Positions 31,287 to 50,882 are shown, counted from the first letter of the stretch. The stretch is DNA of 64,000 bases from Escherichia phage EAWsc9 (PQ341120.1); one strand, 5' to 3'. Translations and numbers: made by a program. The notes: a model not told the origin generated them from the sequence alone.

Positions 31287-31360
31287 AAAGGACTCCTTAT
31301 TGTTGGTCATGATTACGCTTTGCAGCCTTAACATAGCGGAATACTAGTTAGTAACTGTAT

Positions 31361-35463: not shown

Positions 35464-35752
35464 ATTTTTTCCAATCAGAAATCATATGAATCTCTTGGTC
35501 ATAAGTCAAGAGACTACGAGTAATAATACCCTTACAAGGCCCAGAGATGAACTCGAGAGTAAAGTAAGGAACCTGTTTCATTAATCGGATACTTGGAGCA
35601 TGACATCTAAAACGAGAGCCCTTAAAGGGCCCCGACATGAATACATATTCTAATGGATAGAAATAAGCATATTCAAAATTTGTAGTAAGGTCCTCTCTTC
35701 GGACCTTACGTGAGAAATAGCAGAACTCAAAAAGTTCTTCATCAGTCATCAT
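35456..35752 (-). CDS. Hypothetical protein
   Basis: 98 aa ORF. Confidence 0.5.
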   Translation of the reverse strand: MMTDEELFEFCYFSRKVRREDLTTNFEYAYFYPLEYVFMSGPFKGSRFRCHAPSIRLMKQVPYFTLEFISGPCKGIITRSLLTYDQEIHMISDWKKYV

Positions 35753-36276
35753 TGCATTCCTATCACAAAGAACAGTGGCAGAGGTTTAGAACCTTGGCAC
35801 ATAAATTTATTCATCATTGTCTGATAAGCTTCATAGAACTTATCCATCGCTGGTAGGCGAATAGGCTCTTCAATAATAATCAATAATCGGGTAACAGATA
35901 GTCCACGGTACTTGTGAAAATTATCTTCGTCTAAAAATGAACGAACAGTATCATATACAACAAACCCCGGTCGTTCAACATTAAGATGTGGTTGAGCTTT
36001 AGAAACCCGTTTTATTATATTACAGATTTCTCGTGAGCGATGCGAAGAACTCGACATAACAATCACATCATTACCCTTAGAAACCCAATCCACAGCAAAC
36101 TGTGCAATGGCACTTGTTTTACCTGTTTGTCTTCCGCCGTCAAGTCTAAGAGTACCAAACTCTTGCATTCTTGAAGCGGGTTCATACCAGGCGTATTGGT
36201 CTGAATCTAAGCGTTCAATGGCGCGTTCAGCGAAGGCGTGCATTAAGGTTAGATAAATTGGAGTTAAAAATTTCAT
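35749..36276 (-). CDS. Small P-loop NTPase-like protein
   Basis: 175 aa; Walker A-like GGRQTGKTS and hydrophobic-D/E stretch LLIIIEE. Confidence 0.45.
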   Translation of the reverse strand: MKFLTPIYLTLMHAFAERAIERLDSDQYAWYEPASRMQEFGTLRLDGGRQTGKTSAIAQFAVDWVSKGNDVIVMSSSSHRSREICNIIKRVSKAQPHLNVERPGFVVYDTVRSFLDEDNFHKYRGLSVTRLLIIIEEPIRLPAMDKFYEAYQTMMNKFMCQGSKPLPLFFVIGMQ

Positions 36277-36425
36277 AGTTGTCTCTTAATTGTGGGGCCG
36301 TTCCTTGGCACATTAATTCATCCCTTTCTGCATTTACCCATTACCGCACTTGGGCTCGACCTTATTACAGGTTGGTGGGAGTCCCTCACAGAATTGTGAG
36401 GTCCAGGTTGCTCCCCATTTAATTA

Positions 36426-36686
36426 TTACGCTTTACCGCCGGAAACAATACCAAAGGTCTCAAAGTCCCATTCAATATCATCAACATCAACTTTCTTACC
36501 AGCAACCACGAATGCGATTTCGCGACGTTTTGCATAGGTGACAATTTCTTTACCATCACCACCAAAGAAAGAATAACCATTGCGCTTCATGGTGCCAAAG
36601 TCTTCAGCATCGCCAGCAAAGGCGCGAACTTTAAAAGCACCAGTAGGAGCTTTGGCTTCTGTGATAAATTCTTGATAAGTTTTCAT
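36426..36686 (-). CDS. Internal protein (IP-type, capsid-targeting N-terminus)
   Basis: Start set to internal ATG giving MKTYQEFITEAKAP...; T4 IP capsid-targeting consensus MKTYQEFIAEA; own early promoter upstream. Confidence 0.7.
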   Translation of the reverse strand: MKTYQEFITEAKAPTGAFKVRAFAGDAEDFGTMKRNGYSFFGGDGKEIVTYAKRREIAFVVAGKKVDVDDIEWDFETFGIVSGGKA

Positions 36687-36716
36687 TTTATATTCCATTG
36701 TTTGGTTGATAAAATC

Positions 36717-36746
36717 ATTATACAACCTTTTTAGTTAAGCGTACAC
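36717..36746 (-). promoter_or_regulatory. Early promoter (GTGTAC-18-TATAAT) overlapping denV 3' end
   Basis: Minus strand GTGTACgcttaactaaaaaggttgTATAAT upstream of IP gene. Confidence 0.45.
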
Positions 36747-37151
36747 AGCTTTCCCATAGTATTTGTACCAGGTAGGCTTTTGAGAAATTTTCTCATTCAG
36801 TCTGGCTTGACTGATTTCAATTGACCAGATTGATGGTTGATAATCATTCTTCCATTCATCAGGAATATCAGTTAAATCTTGGGTAGAAATATCTTTTATG
36901 TTAAACCCTCGCTTTAAACATTCCGCAATAAGTTCTTGATGCCGGTTTTTAAGGAACAAAAGCTTATCATAAAAGAAGGTGACATGACCAGTCCCTAAAA
37001 GGAAAGATGATGGGATTTTAAAGTCAGACACCTTTTTACCATTTTGCACATGCTTACGAACAGCGCCAAAAACGCGAGGAAGTTCACGATATTCAGCCAT
37101 AAGATGTTGGTCAGCGAGTTCAGATACCAGGGTTAAATTAATGCGAGTCAT
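36735..37151 (-). CDS. denV: Endonuclease V (pyrimidine dimer DNA glycosylase) DenV
   Basis: 138 aa; [34 protein letters not shown]... near-identical to T4 endo V. Confidence 0.95.
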
Positions 37152-37177: not shown

Positions 37178-37207
37178 ATTATAACCCTATCATTTGGAGA
37201 TGTACAC
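37178..37207 (-). promoter_or_regulatory. Early promoter (GTGTAC-18-TATAAT) upstream of denV
   Basis: Minus strand GTGTACatctccaaatgatagggtTATAAT; hairpin in spacer. Confidence 0.45.
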
Positions 37208-37695
37208 TAATATGCGTCAAAAGTTCCGGTGCGGAAAGTTTCAATAACTCGTTTAGCCCGGTTCGGAGTCTGGACTTTATACCATCTTGAGTCTGCCAGT
37301 TCCTTGGCAGCCGCTTCCCATGATTTAGCCTTCAGCAATCGCATACCCTTAGGAAAACCAGCAACACCAGCAACACCCATCTGGAATACCATATTAATGA
37401 GTGCACAACGACGAACTTCATCAAGTACATCATAAACAGGTTTTAAGACAGGATGTCTCAAGATTCCGGCTTTAGCCTTTTCGACCGAACGGTTAAACAG
37501 TGTTTCGGCTTCGTGCTGGGTTATACGACCATTACAGACGCGACCCATGAGCTTATCGAGCTCGGCGCGAGCAACATCTTTTGATGGGTTCTTAGTTATC
37601 AGTTGCCCGATACCAATGGTCCAATAGCCTTCAGTATCTTTATACAAATCCAACTTACAACCTTCATCTATGCGTAACATTTCGAATATATTCAT
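37207..37695 (-). CDS. e: Lysozyme (endolysin) e
   Basis: 162 aa; [32 protein letters not shown]... near-identical to T4 lysozyme incl. catalytic E11/D20/T26. Confidence 0.95.
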
Positions 37696-37721: not shown

Positions 37722-38180
37722 TTATCCGAAAATTTGAGTCATTACCTTGTACATCGATTTGCCCATCACATACTGCCATTGACTCGGTTTAATCAGAGCA
37801 AATGCATCGAACTCTGGAACCGAACTACCATCCGGAAAGGTATGATAGGCAGAGCATTTACTATGTCTGAACTGCTCATGCTCGACCGGAACCGTGTACA
37901 AAAACAGGTGAAGATTTTTGTTATCTGAATAACGGAACTCACCTAAGTCTTTTAAGAATGCTGGGTCGTATTGGGTAAACCCGGTTTCTTCTTCGGTTTC
38001 ACGGATAGCCGCTTCAATCGGGGATTCACCAGCTTCAACATGACCCTTAGGGATGTCCCATTTGTGTGCAGGCATACCTGGTTTACGAGAACCAGTCACA
38101 CGACCCATGAATAACTCTTTATCTTCAGTCATGAAAATAATGCCGGCGGATAATTCTTTCACCTTGTTTTTCTTACTCAT
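37722..38180 (-). CDS. nudE: Nudix hydrolase
   Basis: Nudix box GHVEAGESPIEAAIRETEEETGF; ORF 37722..38213 (non-ATG start codon) trimmed to internal ATG; adjacent to e as T4 nudE (e.1). Confidence 0.8.
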   Translation of the reverse strand: MSKKNKVKELSAGIIFMTEDKELFMGRVTGSRKPGMPAHKWDIPKGHVEAGESPIEAAIRETEEETGFTQYDPAFLKDLGEFRYSDNKNLHLFLYTVPVEHEQFRHSKCSAYHTFPDGSSVPEFDAFALIKPSQWQYVMGKSMYKVMTQIFG

Positions 38181-38409
38181 CGTCACGTTTCCATGATTGG
38201 TTAAAAATATCACTCATTAAAAATTCAAGTCTATTTTCCAATGAAGGGCTTTCACTACTAGAAACTTGAACCATATAGTCAGCAATAGGTCGGAACATAT
38301 CCAAGTCAGTTTCTAAATCATCTTTGATTTTCTCTTCTGATGTACCTGTATCATAGGAATACAGATAAGAATCGCATGACTCAGATTTAATATAAATTGC
38401 AATACTCAT
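38173..38409 (-). CDS. Hypothetical acidic small protein
   Basis: 78 aa ORF. Confidence 0.45.
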   Translation of the reverse strand: MSIAIYIKSESCDSYLYSYDTGTSEEKIKDDLETDLDMFRPIADYMVQVSSSESPSLENRLEFLMSDIFNQSWKRDDE

Positions 38410-47706: not shown

Positions 47707-47783
47707 TGGTCGGGGTGGTGGGATTCTAACCCACAACCTACGGTTTAGAAGACCGTTGCTCTATACAATTGAGCTACACCCCG
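47707..47783 (-). tRNA. tRNA-Arg (anticodon UCU)
   Basis: Hand-folded cloverleaf: acceptor 7 bp, D stem gctc/gagc, anticodon stem acggt/accgt with loop cuUCUaa, T stem gtggg/cccac, encoded CCA; unusual D-loop and T-loop (U19/A56). Confidence 0.7.
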
Positions 47784-47859
47784 GGTGGCCCCATCCGGAC
47801 TTGAACCGGAAACCTGCCAGTTATGAGCCGGATGCTCTAACCAATTGAGCTACAGGGCC
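47784..47859 (-). tRNA. tRNA with anticodon CAU (Met or lysidine-modified Ile)
   Basis: Hand-folded cloverleaf: acceptor ggccctg/tggggcc, D-loop aattggtta, anticodon loop cuCAUaa, T arm tccgg-ttcaagt-ccgga; 3' end encodes CC only; abuts tRNA-Arg. Confidence 0.7.
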
Positions 47860-49361: not shown

Positions 49362-49616
49362 TTATTTTTTAGGGATACGATAGTAACGCATCTCAACATC
49401 TTTCTGCTTGTGCCACTTTTTGATAAGGTCTTCAGAACCTTTAATGGTAACGATGTCATAGCGACCATCATGCGATACTTCAGCACTTAACTGCATGAAG
49501 TTGTCTAGTGAACGGCGCAATTCCTCATTAGAAAAACTACCACGCGGGGAACCAACATAAGCAAACTCAACTTTTGCATCTGCGGCTTCGTTAATAAATT
49601 CTTGATAAGTTTTCAT
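49362..49616 (-). CDS. Internal protein (IP-type)
   Basis: 84 aa; N-terminus MKTYQEFINEAADAK matches T4 IP capsid-targeting sequence. Confidence 0.7.
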   Translation of the reverse strand: MKTYQEFINEAADAKVEFAYVGSPRGSFSNEELRRSLDNFMQLSAEVSHDGRYDIVTIKGSEDLIKKWHKQKDVEMRYYRIPKK

Positions 49617-49641
49617 GTTGTCTCCAGTAGTTGATGGGATA

Positions 49642-49671
49642 ATTATACTGCAGTTATCCCATCGCGTATAC
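49642..49671 (-). promoter_or_regulatory. Early promoter (GTATAC-18-TATAAT)
   Basis: Same cassette as 49333..49361. Confidence 0.45.
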
Positions 49672-49672
49672 T

Positions 49673-49915
49673 TTATTTTAAGTCTTCCAGACGTTTTTTC
49701 ATCTTGGTGCCATTCTTAGCAATTTCGCCAGCATCAGAACAAAGAGCGAGGAGAGCTTTAACTTTACCCTGGTCGCCTTTAAAAGATGATGCATCTACAG
49801 AATCAGCAAGTTCTTTGATACGTGCAAACAGGCGCTCTGCTTCAGCAAGGGCTTGGCCAAGTTTAACTTCCATACCATGGGAAGATTCTGTTATAAATGT
49901 TTGATAAGTTTTCAT
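49673..49915 (-). CDS. Internal protein (IP-type)
   Basis: Start set to internal ATG giving MKTYQTFITESSHG...; GGAGAcaacATG. Confidence 0.65.
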   Translation of the reverse strand: MKTYQTFITESSHGMEVKLGQALAEAERLFARIKELADSVDASSFKGDQGKVKALLALCSDAGEIAKNGTKMKKRLEDLK

Positions 49916-49960
49916 GTTGTCTCCAAGCCATAAAAAGGGGATAATTATCCCCATTTGTTA

Positions 49961-50260
49961 TTACATCTTACTACCACGAATTACGCCATAAGCGGCGAAG
50001 TCGTCAGTGATATTTTTAGGGGTGTTCTTACCAGTTTCAATGAAGGCAATGCTTGATTTCTGACTAAAAGAGGTAATTTTGTTATAGTTAGAGTCAAGGA
50101 AGGTATAACCATTTTTACGCAACTGGTCAAAGTCTTCAGCGTCGCCTTTACCTTTGAAGTCAACCCATTTGTAGGTGTTTTTCTTCTGAAGGCCCAGAGG
50201 CCAGGTTTTTGCTTCTGCTAGGTAATTGTTTTCTACCAAAAATTCATGAAAAGTTTGCAT
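49961..50260 (-). CDS. Internal protein (IP-type)
   Basis: 99 aa; N-terminus MQTFHEFLVEN; shares GDAEDF...NGY motif with 36426..36686. Confidence 0.65.
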   Translation of the reverse strand: MQTFHEFLVENNYLAEAKTWPLGLQKKNTYKWVDFKGKGDAEDFDQLRKNGYTFLDSNYNKITSFSQKSSIAFIETGKNTPKNITDDFAAYGVIRGSKM

Positions 50261-50268
50261 TTGAAATC

Positions 50269-50541
50269 CTATTTTAAATAAATTGCATATTTTTTATAAC
50301 CAGCCGTCTCATGACGGAGACCCTTGTCATTGGCAAAACGCTCAATGTTATTAATTTGGTTCTGGTCAAGTTCTGAAATGTCAAACGCGAAAAAGTTGCG
50401 TTTGTTGCCAATTGTTATATGGTCAGTTAAGTCAATGCTATACAGGTGATTGATATTGTCAATCATAGCTTTGACCGCTTTACTAATTTTTACTTCTTCA
50501 TTCAGTTGTGACTCGTTGAAAAATTCATTGAAAGTTTTCAT
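50269..50541 (-). CDS. Internal protein (IP-type)
   Basis: 90 aa; N-terminus MKTFNEFFNES. Confidence 0.65.
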   Translation of the reverse strand: MKTFNEFFNESQLNEEVKISKAVKAMIDNINHLYSIDLTDHITIGNKRNFFAFDISELDQNQINNIERFANDKGLRHETAGYKKYAIYLK

Positions 50542-50549
50542 AAGAAACC

Positions 50550-50882
50550 TTATTTATAAAGTTTTGCCAGTTCTTTACGTCCGCGAGCAGACATAATAAA
50601 TTGTTCATCGCCAATTTTAAAATAAGCCATACCGCCGTCAACAGCGATACCAATTTCTTTAGTACCTTCTTTGCCTTTCCACTTGCCACCAGATTTCAGG
50701 ACAGCTTCAACTGCAGCTTTGGAATATTTGGACGTTTGAAAACGTTCATTACCAATCTGAAAGAAAACACCATCTGCATTTTTGGTTAAACCAAATTTCA
50801 GAGAGCCTTCACTATCATCAATTGATTTGGTCTCATTGATGGCGGATTCGGCTAAAAACTCGTTGTAAGTTTTGATGTTCAT
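50550..50882 (-). CDS. Internal protein (IP-type)
   Basis: 110 aa; N-terminus MNIKTYNEFLAES. Confidence 0.65.
   Translation of the reverse strand: MNIKTYNEFLAESAINETKSIDDSEGSLKFGLTKNADGVFFQIGNERFQTSKYSKAAVEAVLKSGGKWKGKEGTKEIGIAVDGGMAYFKIGDEQFIMSARGRKELAKLYK

What the first reader, a model, noticed from the sequence alone, without database searches (positions are those of the whole stretch)
36426..36686. A sixth internal-protein gene displaced next to denV and paralogous to one member of the distant array
This ORF carries the same targeting peptide (MKTYQEFITEA) but lies 13 kb from the main array, between a P-loop gene and denV, with its own GTGTAC-18-TATAAT promoter overlapping the denV 3' end. 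Its cargo shares a GDAEDF...(K/R)NGY(S/T)F core with 49961-50260, so at least one cargo domain has been duplicated and relocated. The ORF-track start (MYNDFINQTMEYKMKTYQEF) would put the promoter -10 inside the coding region, which supports the shorter start.
Basis: seen in the sequence. Interest (0 to 1): 0.5.

Follow-up and report, generated by a model that had tools for sequence, protein, structure and literature searches.

The report
Internal head protein gene beside denV
This is an ordinary, already catalogued "internal head protein" gene of a T4-like phage, sitting in the usual second internal-protein locus next to denV: it was not moved there from the main array, although it has an old, diverged paralogue in that array.

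Summary
ORF 36686..36426 (- strand, 86 aa) starts with MKTYQEFITE, which is 9/10 identical to the T4 IPII/IPIII capsid targeting sequence. It lies between denV and a Walker-A vs.8 homologue. A GTGTAC-N18-TATAAT early promoter overlaps the denV 3' end. Its cargo is significantly similar to 49961..50260 (BLASTP E=7e-16; cargo-only z=20.6).

The word "displaced" is not supported. The window is from a Gaprivervirus (relatives of SP18 and VR7). The e–denV–vs.8 interval is a standard internal-protein (IP) locus in Tevenvirinae; T4 keeps ipII and ipIII there. This family (RB69 ORF125c / VR7 ORF127c, PHROG 2667 "internal head protein") sits beside denV in three genera. It was found in 205 phage records. 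The array-type paralogue covers most of the query in only 40.

Close relatives carry every combination of three cassettes (ip10, 125c, ip7-like) at this site. The breakpoints fall exactly at the ATG and the stop codon, which fits known promoter/targeting-sequence-mediated cassette shuffling.

A family member, Morganella phage MP1 gp136, was detected in purified virions by mass spectrometry.

The likely mechanism is packaging through the targeting peptide, cleavage by the prohead protease gp21 after Glu10, and injection of a 76-aa alpha/beta protein. An anti-defence role is inferred, with no known target. Already known; low interest.

The parts
36426..36686 (-). Internal head protein gene: 86 aa plus stop, of the RB69 ORF125c / VR7 ORF127c family (PHROG 2667).
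   Evidence: ORF and translation. phrog_2667 'internal head protein' at E=8.9e-22. 93% nucleotide identity to SP18gp123. Cargo 100% identical to ECML-359 and TH54.
36657..36686 (-). Capsid targeting sequence, codons 1-10 (MKTYQEFITE). Predicted gp21 cleavage is ITE|A after Glu10, giving a 76-aa mature protein of 8.2 kDa and pI 6.5.
   Evidence: 9/10 identical to T4 IPII/IPIII MKTYQEFIAE. The single L/I-x-E site is at residue 10. The roles of residues 4, 7, 8 and 10 come from PMC9026906.
36717..36746 (-). T4-type early promoter: -35 GTGTAC at 36746-36741, 18-nt spacer, -10 TATAAT at 36722-36717. The -35 lies within the last denV codons.
   Evidence: Sequence. The motif class occurs 6 times, all on the - strand, against 0.21 in shuffles. 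The promoter and leader are identical in SP18, ECML-359 and fPSFA and near-identical in RZ, ahead of three different cargos.
36693..36696 (-). Weak Shine-Dalgarno-like GGAA, 6 nt upstream of ATG 36686. It overlaps the alternative ATG at 36698-36696.
   Evidence: Read directly from the sequence. Function is inferred.
36735..37151 (-). denV (endonuclease V), the upstream neighbour. It has its own TGTACA-17-TATAAT promoter at 37206-37178.
   Evidence: Annotation of orthologues. Promoter scan 10/12.
36277..36425 (-). Non-coding spacer between the IP gene and vs.8. The first ~50 nt go with the upstream cassette; the remaining ~100 nt are conserved upstream of vs.8 in all relatives. There is no intrinsic terminator, so read-through into vs.8 is likely.
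   Evidence: Alignment of six genomes. Fold z=-0.03. No terminator reported here.
35749..36276 (-). vs.8 homologue with Walker A motif GGRQTGKT, the downstream neighbour.
   Evidence: phrog_1488 at E=1.6e-68, with a weak hit to a terminase ATPase PHROG. Annotated vs.8 in SP18, VR7 and T4.
49961..50260 (-). Diverged paralogue in the ipI-locus array (VR7 ORF154c type, 99 aa). Its targeting peptide is MQTFHEFLVE, and it has a second gp21-type site, LAE16.
   Evidence: BLASTP E=7e-16. Cargo-only z=20.6. phrog_2667 at E=5.9e-21. Distribution. Cleavage sites.
49362..50882 (-). Five tandem IP genes between 57B and trna.4, at the position of the T4 ipI locus.
   Evidence: ORFs. Targeting-peptide scan. 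PHROG assignments. T4 map. ECML-359 annotation, which names ip5 and ip9.

Best explanation
The ORF at 36686..36426 is a T4-type internal head protein (IP) gene of the RB69 ORF125c / VR7 ORF127c family. It occupies the regular IP locus that flanks denV in Tevenvirinae.

**Proposed mechanism**
1. The gene is transcribed by host RNA polymerase from its own early promoter, and probably also by read-through from the denV promoter.
2. Translation starts at ATG 36686.
3. The first 10 residues (MKTYQEFITE) target the protein to the scaffolding core of the prohead.
4. The prohead protease gp21 cuts after Glu10 (ITE|A). This leaves a 76-aa, 8.2-kDa, near-neutral alpha/beta protein among the packaged DNA.
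5. That protein is injected with the DNA at the next infection.
6. By analogy with IPI (blocks GmrS/GmrD), IpII (blocks fused GmrSD), IPIII (needed on ECOR17) and Bas37_0260 (blocks McrBC), it most likely neutralises a host defence that acts on incoming modified DNA. Its target is unknown.

**How the locus evolves**
Genes here behave as cassettes bounded by a shared promoter, leader and targeting-peptide sequence. Recombination in those repeats adds, removes or swaps cargos. In this phage only the 125c cassette is left.

**Shown versus inferred**
- Shown: sequence features, family membership, locus conservation, cassette breakpoints, the paralogy, and virion presence of one homologue.
- Inferred: packaging and cleavage of this particular protein, its injection, and the anti-defence role.
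For: **Targeting peptide and processing site**
- The peptide is 9/10 identical to T4 IPII/IPIII, including Y4, F7, I8 and E10. Those are the positions mapped for targeting and processing (PMC9026906).

**Family and locus**
- PHROG 2667 'internal head protein' at E=8.9e-22.
- Orthologues are annotated as internal head protein in RefSeq records of VR7, VR20 and STP4-a.
- The same family lies next to denV in Gaprivervirus, Mosigvirus and Gelderlandvirus, in 205 records overall.
- T4 keeps ipII and ipIII beside denV.

**Virion presence of a homologue**
- MP1 gp136 is identical to P0009. It scores z=15.8 against this cargo and Foldseek E=2.9e-7, TM 0.76 against the model.
- It was found in purified virions with 6 unique peptides and 59% coverage (PMC5384007).

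**Promoter**
- The promoter class is strongly enriched and strand-specific.
- T4 ipI, ipII, ipIII and denV each have a comparable GTTTAC promoter.

**Cassette behaviour**
- Observed combinations are ip10+125c+ip7, ip10+125c, ip10+ip7, 125c+ip7, ip7 alone and 125c alone.
- Homology breaks exactly at the ATG and just after the stop codon.
- PeSL-mediated shuffling is documented in PMC2839356 and PMC4122927.

**Fold and function analogy**
- The AF2 model is confident (pLDDT 82.5, pTM 0.72) and compact.
- Anti-defence roles of other IPs: PMC3012670, 10.1101/2023.04.06.535777, PMC9391042, 10.1101/2025.11.20.689424.
Against: - There is no direct evidence that this protein, or any denV-side orthologue, is packaged, cleaved or injected. 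The mass-spectrometry evidence concerns a 35%-identical member of the array-type subfamily, in a preparation that also contained non-structural proteins.
- The mature protein is near-neutral (pI 6.5), unlike the basic T4 IPII and IPIII.
- The Shine-Dalgarno sequence before ATG 36686 is weak (GGAA).
- The -35 is a poor match to TTGACA, and the generic sigma-70 scan missed the promoter.
Confidence: 0.75

Rival explanations
1. The protein is packaged, but it serves the head itself, for example core assembly or charge balance with the DNA, as reported for T4 IPIII. It would not be an injected anti-defence factor.
For: A T4 IPIII mutant assembles heads more slowly and has a burst about 40% of normal (PMC9026906). 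The family is conserved at 73-100% identity across three genera at one locus. That is more conservation than one expects from a pure arms-race gene.
Against: The gene is absent from close relatives (RZ, VR26) that are viable phages, so it is dispensable. The mature protein is near-neutral (12 K+R, 12 D+E), which argues against DNA charge neutralisation. Four IPs have been linked to overcoming host restriction or defence, three of them with an identified target.
Confidence: 0.15
2. The protein is an early cytoplasmic protein that is not packaged. The N-terminal similarity to the targeting peptide would be a relic carried along with the shared promoter and leader cassette.
For: The gene has only an early-type promoter. 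No TATAAATA late promoter lies nearby; the nearest are at 31358 and 47250. Its targeting-peptide DNA is identical to that of neighbouring cassettes in relatives, so recombination rather than selection could maintain it.
Against: T4 ipI, ipII and ipIII, which are packaged, also have GTTTAC early-type promoters. The peptide is kept, with Y/F4, F/Y7 and E10, in all family members, including distant ones with diverged DNA (alignment A2). MP1 gp136 is virion-associated.
Confidence: 0.07
3. This is the first reader's model: a recent duplication of the array gene 49961..50260 moved to a new site beside denV in this genome.
For: The two cargos are paralogous. Both are followed by a similar TAATAA..AAATGGGGA 3' flank.
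Against: Protein identity is only 30%, and the longest exact DNA match at the targeting peptide is 6 nt. Both paralogues are already present at the same two loci in Gaprivervirus and Gelderlandvirus. The denV-side copy is also found in Mosigvirus, where the array-type query gave only partial, ~40% identity matches at the denV-side gene. The denV flank is an IP locus in T4 as well.
Confidence: 0.03
4. The real product is the longer ORF, starting at TTG 36725 (99 aa) or ATG 36698 (MEYKMKTYQ..., 90 aa), which would bury the targeting peptide behind an N-terminal extension.
For: The ORF is open from 36725. Annotators chose the MEYK start for the first gene after denV in SP18; the annotated lengths in UPEC01 and RZ agree. 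Read-through transcripts from the denV promoter would contain both upstream starts.
Against: The -10 hexamer abuts the TTG, so promoter-derived transcripts lack it. No Shine-Dalgarno sequence is correctly spaced for either upstream start. Where the orthologue is the second gene in the cluster, an in-frame TAA lies 4 codons upstream of the ATG (SP18, UPEC01). Every family member aligns from M1 of the targeting peptide. fPSFA is annotated with the short start.
Confidence: 0.05

Closest known systems
T4 internal proteins IPII and IPIII (ipII, ipIII, next to denV)
   Same: The capsid targeting sequence is nearly identical (MKTYQEFIAE in T4, MKTYQEFITE here). The gp21 site after Glu10 is the same. 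Each gene is small and has its own GTTTAC/GTGTAC early promoter. All lie in the e-denV-vs.8 interval.
   Different: The cargos are unrelated in sequence (z=-0.4 and 0.5). In T4 the IP genes lie upstream of denV; here the gene lies downstream. The mature protein is near-neutral (pI 6.5), against pI 9.6 for T4 IPII and IPIII. IpII has a known target (fused GmrSD). This family has none.
RB69 ORF125c / VR7 ORF127c / SP18gp123 family (PHROG 2667, 'internal head protein')
   Same: Direct orthologues with 73-100% protein identity, the same length, and the same position after denV in Gaprivervirus, Mosigvirus and Gelderlandvirus.
   Different: In this phage (and fPSFA) it is the only cassette left between denV and vs.8, and it has taken over the promoter and leader that precede ip10 in SP18 and VR7. 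One codon (Ser11) is missing, and the end of the targeting peptide matches the ip7-like cassette.
VR7 ORF154c / STP4a_129 / Morganella phage MP1 gp136 (array-type paralogue subfamily)
   Same: The fold family and core motifs are shared: GDAEDF..(K/R)NGY(S/T)F...IAF..GK. They fall in the same PHROG. MP1 gp136 is experimentally virion-associated.
   Different: They are 30-40% identical to the target, have longer propeptides with a second cleavage motif, and sit at the ipI locus between 57B and the tRNA genes.
T4 IPI* (GmrS/GmrD inhibitor; its solved NMR structure is described in PMC3012670)
   Same: The mature product is also 76 residues, and is a compact mixed alpha/beta protein delivered through the same targeting route.
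PeSL (promoter-early stem-loop) mobile regulatory cassettes of T4-type phages
   Same: Variable small ORFs in hyperplastic regions are each preceded by a conserved early promoter. Recombination between those motifs inserts or deletes ORFs. The T-even consensus is TTTACW-N17-TAYWAT. Neighbouring promoters in the window carry the stem-loop.
   Different: The promoter of this gene has no convincing stem-loop, and its -35 is TGTACG. Here the recombining repeat extends into the coding region (the targeting-peptide codons), and breakpoints fall at the ATG. In RB49/phi1 the breakpoints lay between the -10 and the ATG.

Membership tests
T4-type internal proteins (targeting-peptide-bearing, packaged and injected) | An N-terminal ~10-residue capsid targeting sequence resembling MKTYQEFIAE, with the targeting determinants at positions 4 and 7 | tested here: met
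   MKTYQEFITE is 9/10 identical to T4 IPII/IPIII, with Y4 and F7 kept. Determinants are from PMC9026906.
T4-type internal proteins (targeting-peptide-bearing, packaged and injected) | A gp21 prohead-protease site (L/I-x-E|) at the end of the targeting peptide, with processing determinants at positions 8 and 10 | tested here: met
   I8-T9-E10|A11 is the only such motif in the protein. Actual cleavage cannot be tested here.
T4-type internal proteins (targeting-peptide-bearing, packaged and injected) | Location in one of the two IP loci of T-even genomes: the e/denV/vs.8 interval, or the 57B/tRNA interval | tested here: met
   The gene lies between denV and vs.8. T4 ipII and ipIII are in the same interval.
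T4-type internal proteins (targeting-peptide-bearing, packaged and injected) | Physical presence of the processed protein inside the virion, and ejection into the host | not testable with these tools
   Only indirect support: the homologue MP1 gp136 was detected in virions by ESI-MS/MS, with 6 peptides and 59% coverage.
RB69 ORF125c / PHROG 2667 internal head protein family | A significant profile match over the whole cargo | tested here: met
   phrog_2667 at E=8.9e-22, residues 1-84. tblastn of the cargo alone gives 74-100% identity in 205 records. Alignment A2 shows the conserved NGY.F and G..D.F cores.
Orthologue of T4 IPI, IPII or IPIII | Cargo sequence similarity to the T4 protein | tested here: not met
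   Cargo-only Smith-Waterman z = 0.7, -0.4 and 0.5. hhalign to IPI aligns only the 10 targeting-peptide columns.
Anti-restriction / anti-defence internal proteins (IPI, IpII, IPIII, Bas37_0260) | A demonstrated defence system counteracted by the protein | not testable with these tools
PeSL mobile regulatory cassette | An early promoter of the T-even PeSL type (TTTACW-N17-TAYWAT) directly upstream of a variable ORF | tested here: met
   TGTACG-N17-TATAAT gives 4/6 at the -35 and a perfect -10. It precedes ip10, 125c or ip7-like cargos in different genomes. Consensus is from PMC4122927.
PeSL mobile regulatory cassette | A stem-loop associated with the promoter | tested here: inconclusive
   Only a weak A/T stem (TAAAA..TTTTA) flanks the -10 here. 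The denV, a1, a5 and trna.4 promoters in the window have clear G+C-containing inverted repeats around the -10.

The most novel reading that the evidence does not exclude
The two paralogues may be a sub-functionalised pair of injected inhibitors aimed at two variants of one host defence. One copy is beside denV and the other is in the ipI array. The precedent is T4 IPI against two-subunit GmrS/GmrD and IpII against fused GmrSD. On this reading, their joint retention in Gaprivervirus and Gelderlandvirus marks a defence system that is common in Escherichia, Shigella and Salmonella and has not yet been linked to any phage inhibitor. The clean ATG-to-stop cassette boundaries would then make the targeting-peptide codons themselves a recombination module for swapping such inhibitors.
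Probability: 0.15. Interest if true: 0.5.

Novelty: already known. Interest (0 to 1): 0.15.

Why it matters
As a discovery it matters little. The gene, its family label, the locus and the shuffling mechanism are all in public records and papers.

It is useful in two practical ways:

- **Annotation.** The correct start is ATG 36686. Several public records extend the first gene after denV to the upstream MEYK ATG (SP18, and by annotated length UPEC01 and RZ), or leave these genes unannotated (ECML-359).
- **A candidate for screening.** This is an internal-protein family conserved across three Tevenvirinae genera, with a confident small alpha/beta model, one virion-proteomics hit and no assigned target. 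That makes it a reasonable candidate for anti-defence screens of the kind that assigned IpII to GmrSD and Bas37_0260 to McrBC.

Tried and rejected
- **Rfam.** A search of the whole window at gathering thresholds found only two tRNAs, at 47710-47859. Nothing was found near the gene.
- **Intergenic fold.** The 171-nt region 36270-36440 folds no better than shuffles (z=-0.03). The alignment fold has 1 covarying pair out of 22. It was not pursued as an RNA element.
- **Pfam.** No hit for any of the six IPs or for vs.8.
- **Word-indexed protein search.** Only 3 close homologues were returned.
- **Exhaustive hmmsearch.** It gave 14 hits. Those to large proteins (about 310-1390 aa) are IPT/TIG-repeat, EF-hand-repeat or other multi-repeat proteins, whose scores are sums over 5-10 weak stretches. 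The scanned ones also 'hit' unrelated Pfam families with no individually significant stretch. I rejected them as repeat artefacts.
- **Late promoter.** No TATAAATA lies near the gene.
- **Bas37_0260.** I tried to obtain the sequence or GenBank name of this McrBC-inhibiting IP to test homology, and failed.
- **Repoila et al. 1994 (PMC395341).** Not held in the library. Its content is cited only through later papers.
- **MotA box.** I considered a MotA-box reading of CGCTTAA, 12 nt upstream of the -10. It has one mismatch to TGCTT and was not tested, so no claim is made.

Full report
**1. What is in the sequence**

On the minus strand the gene order is nudE (38213..37722), e lysozyme (37695..37207), denV (37151..36735), the target ORF, then a 175-aa vs.8 homologue (36276..35749).

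The target ORF is open from TTG 36725 and also contains ATG 36698 (MEYK...). The protein MKTYQEFITEAKAPTGAF... begins at ATG 36686 and ends at the stop codon 36428-36426. It is 86 aa long.

A loose targeting-peptide pattern finds exactly six such ORFs in the window: this one and five in tandem at 49362..50882. Those five lie between 57B and trna.4, which is the position of ipI in T4.

**2. Promoter and start codon**

GTGTAC (36746-36741), an 18-nt spacer and TATAAT (36722-36717) lie across the denV stop codon (36737-36735).

The motif GT[GT]TAC-N17-19-TATAAT occurs six times in the window. All six are on the transcribed strand and all lie just upstream of ORFs. Shuffled sequence gives 0.21 occurrences. 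The generic sigma-70 scan lists the denV promoter but not this one, because TGTACG matches TTGACA at only 3 of 6 positions. T4 denV, ipI, ipII and ipIII each have a GTTTAC promoter of the same build. The published T-even PeSL promoter consensus is TTTACW-N17-TAYWAT (PMC4122927).

The TTG of the long ORF abuts the -10, so transcripts made from this promoter cannot contain it.

The comparative evidence for the short start is stronger. In SP18 and UPEC01 the orthologue is the second gene of the cluster. There it is preceded by a 13-14-nt spacer with an in-frame TAA four codons upstream of the ATG. All family members align from Met1 of the targeting peptide.

**3. The paralogy is real**

BLASTP of the two whole proteins gives E=7e-16. 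With the targeting peptides removed, z=20.6. No other pair among the six IPs exceeds z=2.3. Both proteins fall in PHROG 2667, 'internal head protein' (E=8.9e-22 and 5.9e-21).

**4. Where the window comes from, and what the locus is**

The region is 91-97% identical to Gaprivervirus genomes such as SP18, VR7, ECML-359 and RZ.

The gene orders are:

| Phage (genus) | Order |
|---|---|
| SP18, VR7 (Gaprivervirus) | denV - ip10 - ORF125c-like - 'ip7' - vs.8 |
| T4 (Tequatrovirus) | e - ipIII - ipII - denV - vs.8 |
| phi25-307 (Mosigvirus) | e - IP - denV - 125c-like - ip10-like - IPIII - IPII |
| STP4-a (Gelderlandvirus) | denV - IP - 125c-like - IP |

The flank of denV is therefore a standard IP locus.

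The target is the orthologue of SP18gp123 / VR7ORF127c / RB69 ORF125c, with 93% nucleotide identity. tblastn with the cargo alone finds it in 205 phage records, 37 of which have a second place. The array-type paralogue (VR7 ORF154c type) covers at least 80% of the query in only 40 records: Gaprivervirus, Gelderlandvirus, and a 42%-identical copy in Morganella phage MP1.

The two copies are 30% identical and share at most 6 nt of exact match at their targeting peptides. The duplication is old, and the denV-side copy is the widespread one. 'Displaced' and 'relocated' are not supported.

**5. Cassette behaviour**

Close relatives carry these sets between denV and vs.8:

| Cassettes present | Phages |
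|---|---|
| ip10 + 125c + ip7-like | SP18, VR7 (VR20 and VR25 by annotation) |
| ip10 + 125c | UPEC01 |
| ip10 + ip7 | VR26 |
| 125c + ip7-like | ECML-359 (unannotated there) |
| ip7-like only | RZ |
| 125c only | fPSFA and this window |

Whichever cargo comes first inherits the same promoter and leader...TTGTATAATGATTTTATCAACCAAACAATGGAATATAAAATG (one base differs in RZ).

Homology with the alternative contexts breaks at the ATG. At the 3' end it breaks immediately after the stop codon: TAATAATTAA when the gene is last, and TAACTGTTTAC (the next promoter) when another cassette follows.

In the window the end of the targeting peptide (ATCACAGAAGCCAAAGCTCCTA) matches the ip7-like cassette, and one codon (Ser11) is missing. 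That suggests exchange among the targeting-peptide repeats; this is an inference.

This is the behaviour described for PeSL-bounded ORFs in T4-type phages, including differences in IP genes between T4 and PST (PMC2839356 and PMC4122927).

**6. The protein**

The only L/I-x-E motif is ITE10|A. Cleavage there gives a 76-aa mature protein of 8.2 kDa and pI 6.5.

The AF2 model, built on a 10-sequence alignment, has pLDDT 82.5 and pTM 0.72. Its topology is beta-alpha-beta-beta-alpha-beta-alpha-beta.

An exhaustive hmmsearch of 1.84 billion representatives found only a handful of true clusters, all short proteins with a targeting peptide. It also returned repeat-protein artefacts.

**7. Evidence for packaging**

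The first 10 residues of IPIII are sufficient for head targeting. Residues 4 and 7 matter for targeting, and residues 8 and 10 for processing (PMC9026906). All four are kept here.

MP1 gp136 is identical to P0009, which scores z=15.8 against this cargo. It was identified in purified MP1 virions with 6 unique peptides and 59% coverage (PMC5384007). That preparation also contained some non-structural proteins, so this is supportive rather than conclusive.

**8. Function**

- IPI* inhibits GmrS/GmrD (PMC3012670).
- IpII inhibits fused GmrSD (10.1101/2023.04.06.535777).
- IPIII is needed on ECOR17 and works without its targeting peptide (PMC9391042).
- Bas37_0260, a targeting-peptide-bearing protein at the ipI locus, blocks McrBC (10.1101/2025.11.20.689424).

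By analogy, an injected anti-defence role is the most likely function here.

**9. Verdict**

The object is an already catalogued internal head protein gene in a known, plastic IP locus. Interest is low.

Noticed in passing
window 37207-37165, 49361-49320, 49672-49625, 50945-50890 (- strand): Several early promoters carry an inverted repeat straddling the -10, for example AGGGT-TATAAT-GACCCT before denV and GGGATA..TATAAT.TATCCC before a1 and trna.4. T4 denV, ipI, ipII and ipIII promoters do the same. These match the published PeSL (promoter-early stem-loop) motifs.
   Followed up: partly
window 36277-36375: About 100 nt of non-coding sequence upstream of vs.8 is conserved in all Gaprivervirus relatives, whichever IP cassette precedes it. 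It has no promoter motif and no significant fold (z=-0.03). Its role is unknown; T4 lacks it, because there denV abuts vs.8.
   Followed up: partly
window 49961-50260 (- strand): The array paralogue has two gp21-type sites, LVE10 and LAE16. This suggests a longer propeptide removed in two steps, reminiscent of the 19-residue propeptide of T4 IPI (95-aa precursor, 76-aa mature form).
   Followed up: no
window 50551-50558 (- strand): An exact T4 late-promoter motif, TATAAATA, ends 9 nt before the ATG of the fourth array gene (50541). A transcript started there would have almost no leader.
   Followed up: no
window 36734-36740 (- strand): CGCTTAA lies 12 nt upstream of the -10 of the IP promoter. 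It resembles a MotA box (TGCTT) with one mismatch, so the promoter might also act in middle mode. Not tested.
   Followed up: no
L005 776-1434 and L004 1482-1836 (Escherichia phage ECML-359, OL631482.1): This public record leaves both IP genes between denV and vs.8 unannotated. It also leaves unannotated the stretches matching window genes 49961..50260 and 49362..49616.
   Followed up: partly
window 35749-36276 (- strand): The vs.8 homologue has a Walker A motif (GGRQTGKT) and a weak match to the ATPase region of the terminase large-subunit PHROG (E=1.2e-4). Its function is unknown.
   Followed up: no
proteins P0005, P0011-P0015, P0017 (hmmsearch hits): Large IPT/TIG-repeat and EF-hand-repeat proteins reached E-values down to 5e-16 against the small IP profile by summing 5-10 weak repeat matches. 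They are artefacts, not relatives.
   Followed up: yes
window 47710-47859 (- strand): Two adjacent tRNA genes (Rfam tRNA, 73.7 and 62.2 bits) lie downstream of the IP array, as in the T4 tRNA region.
   Followed up: no
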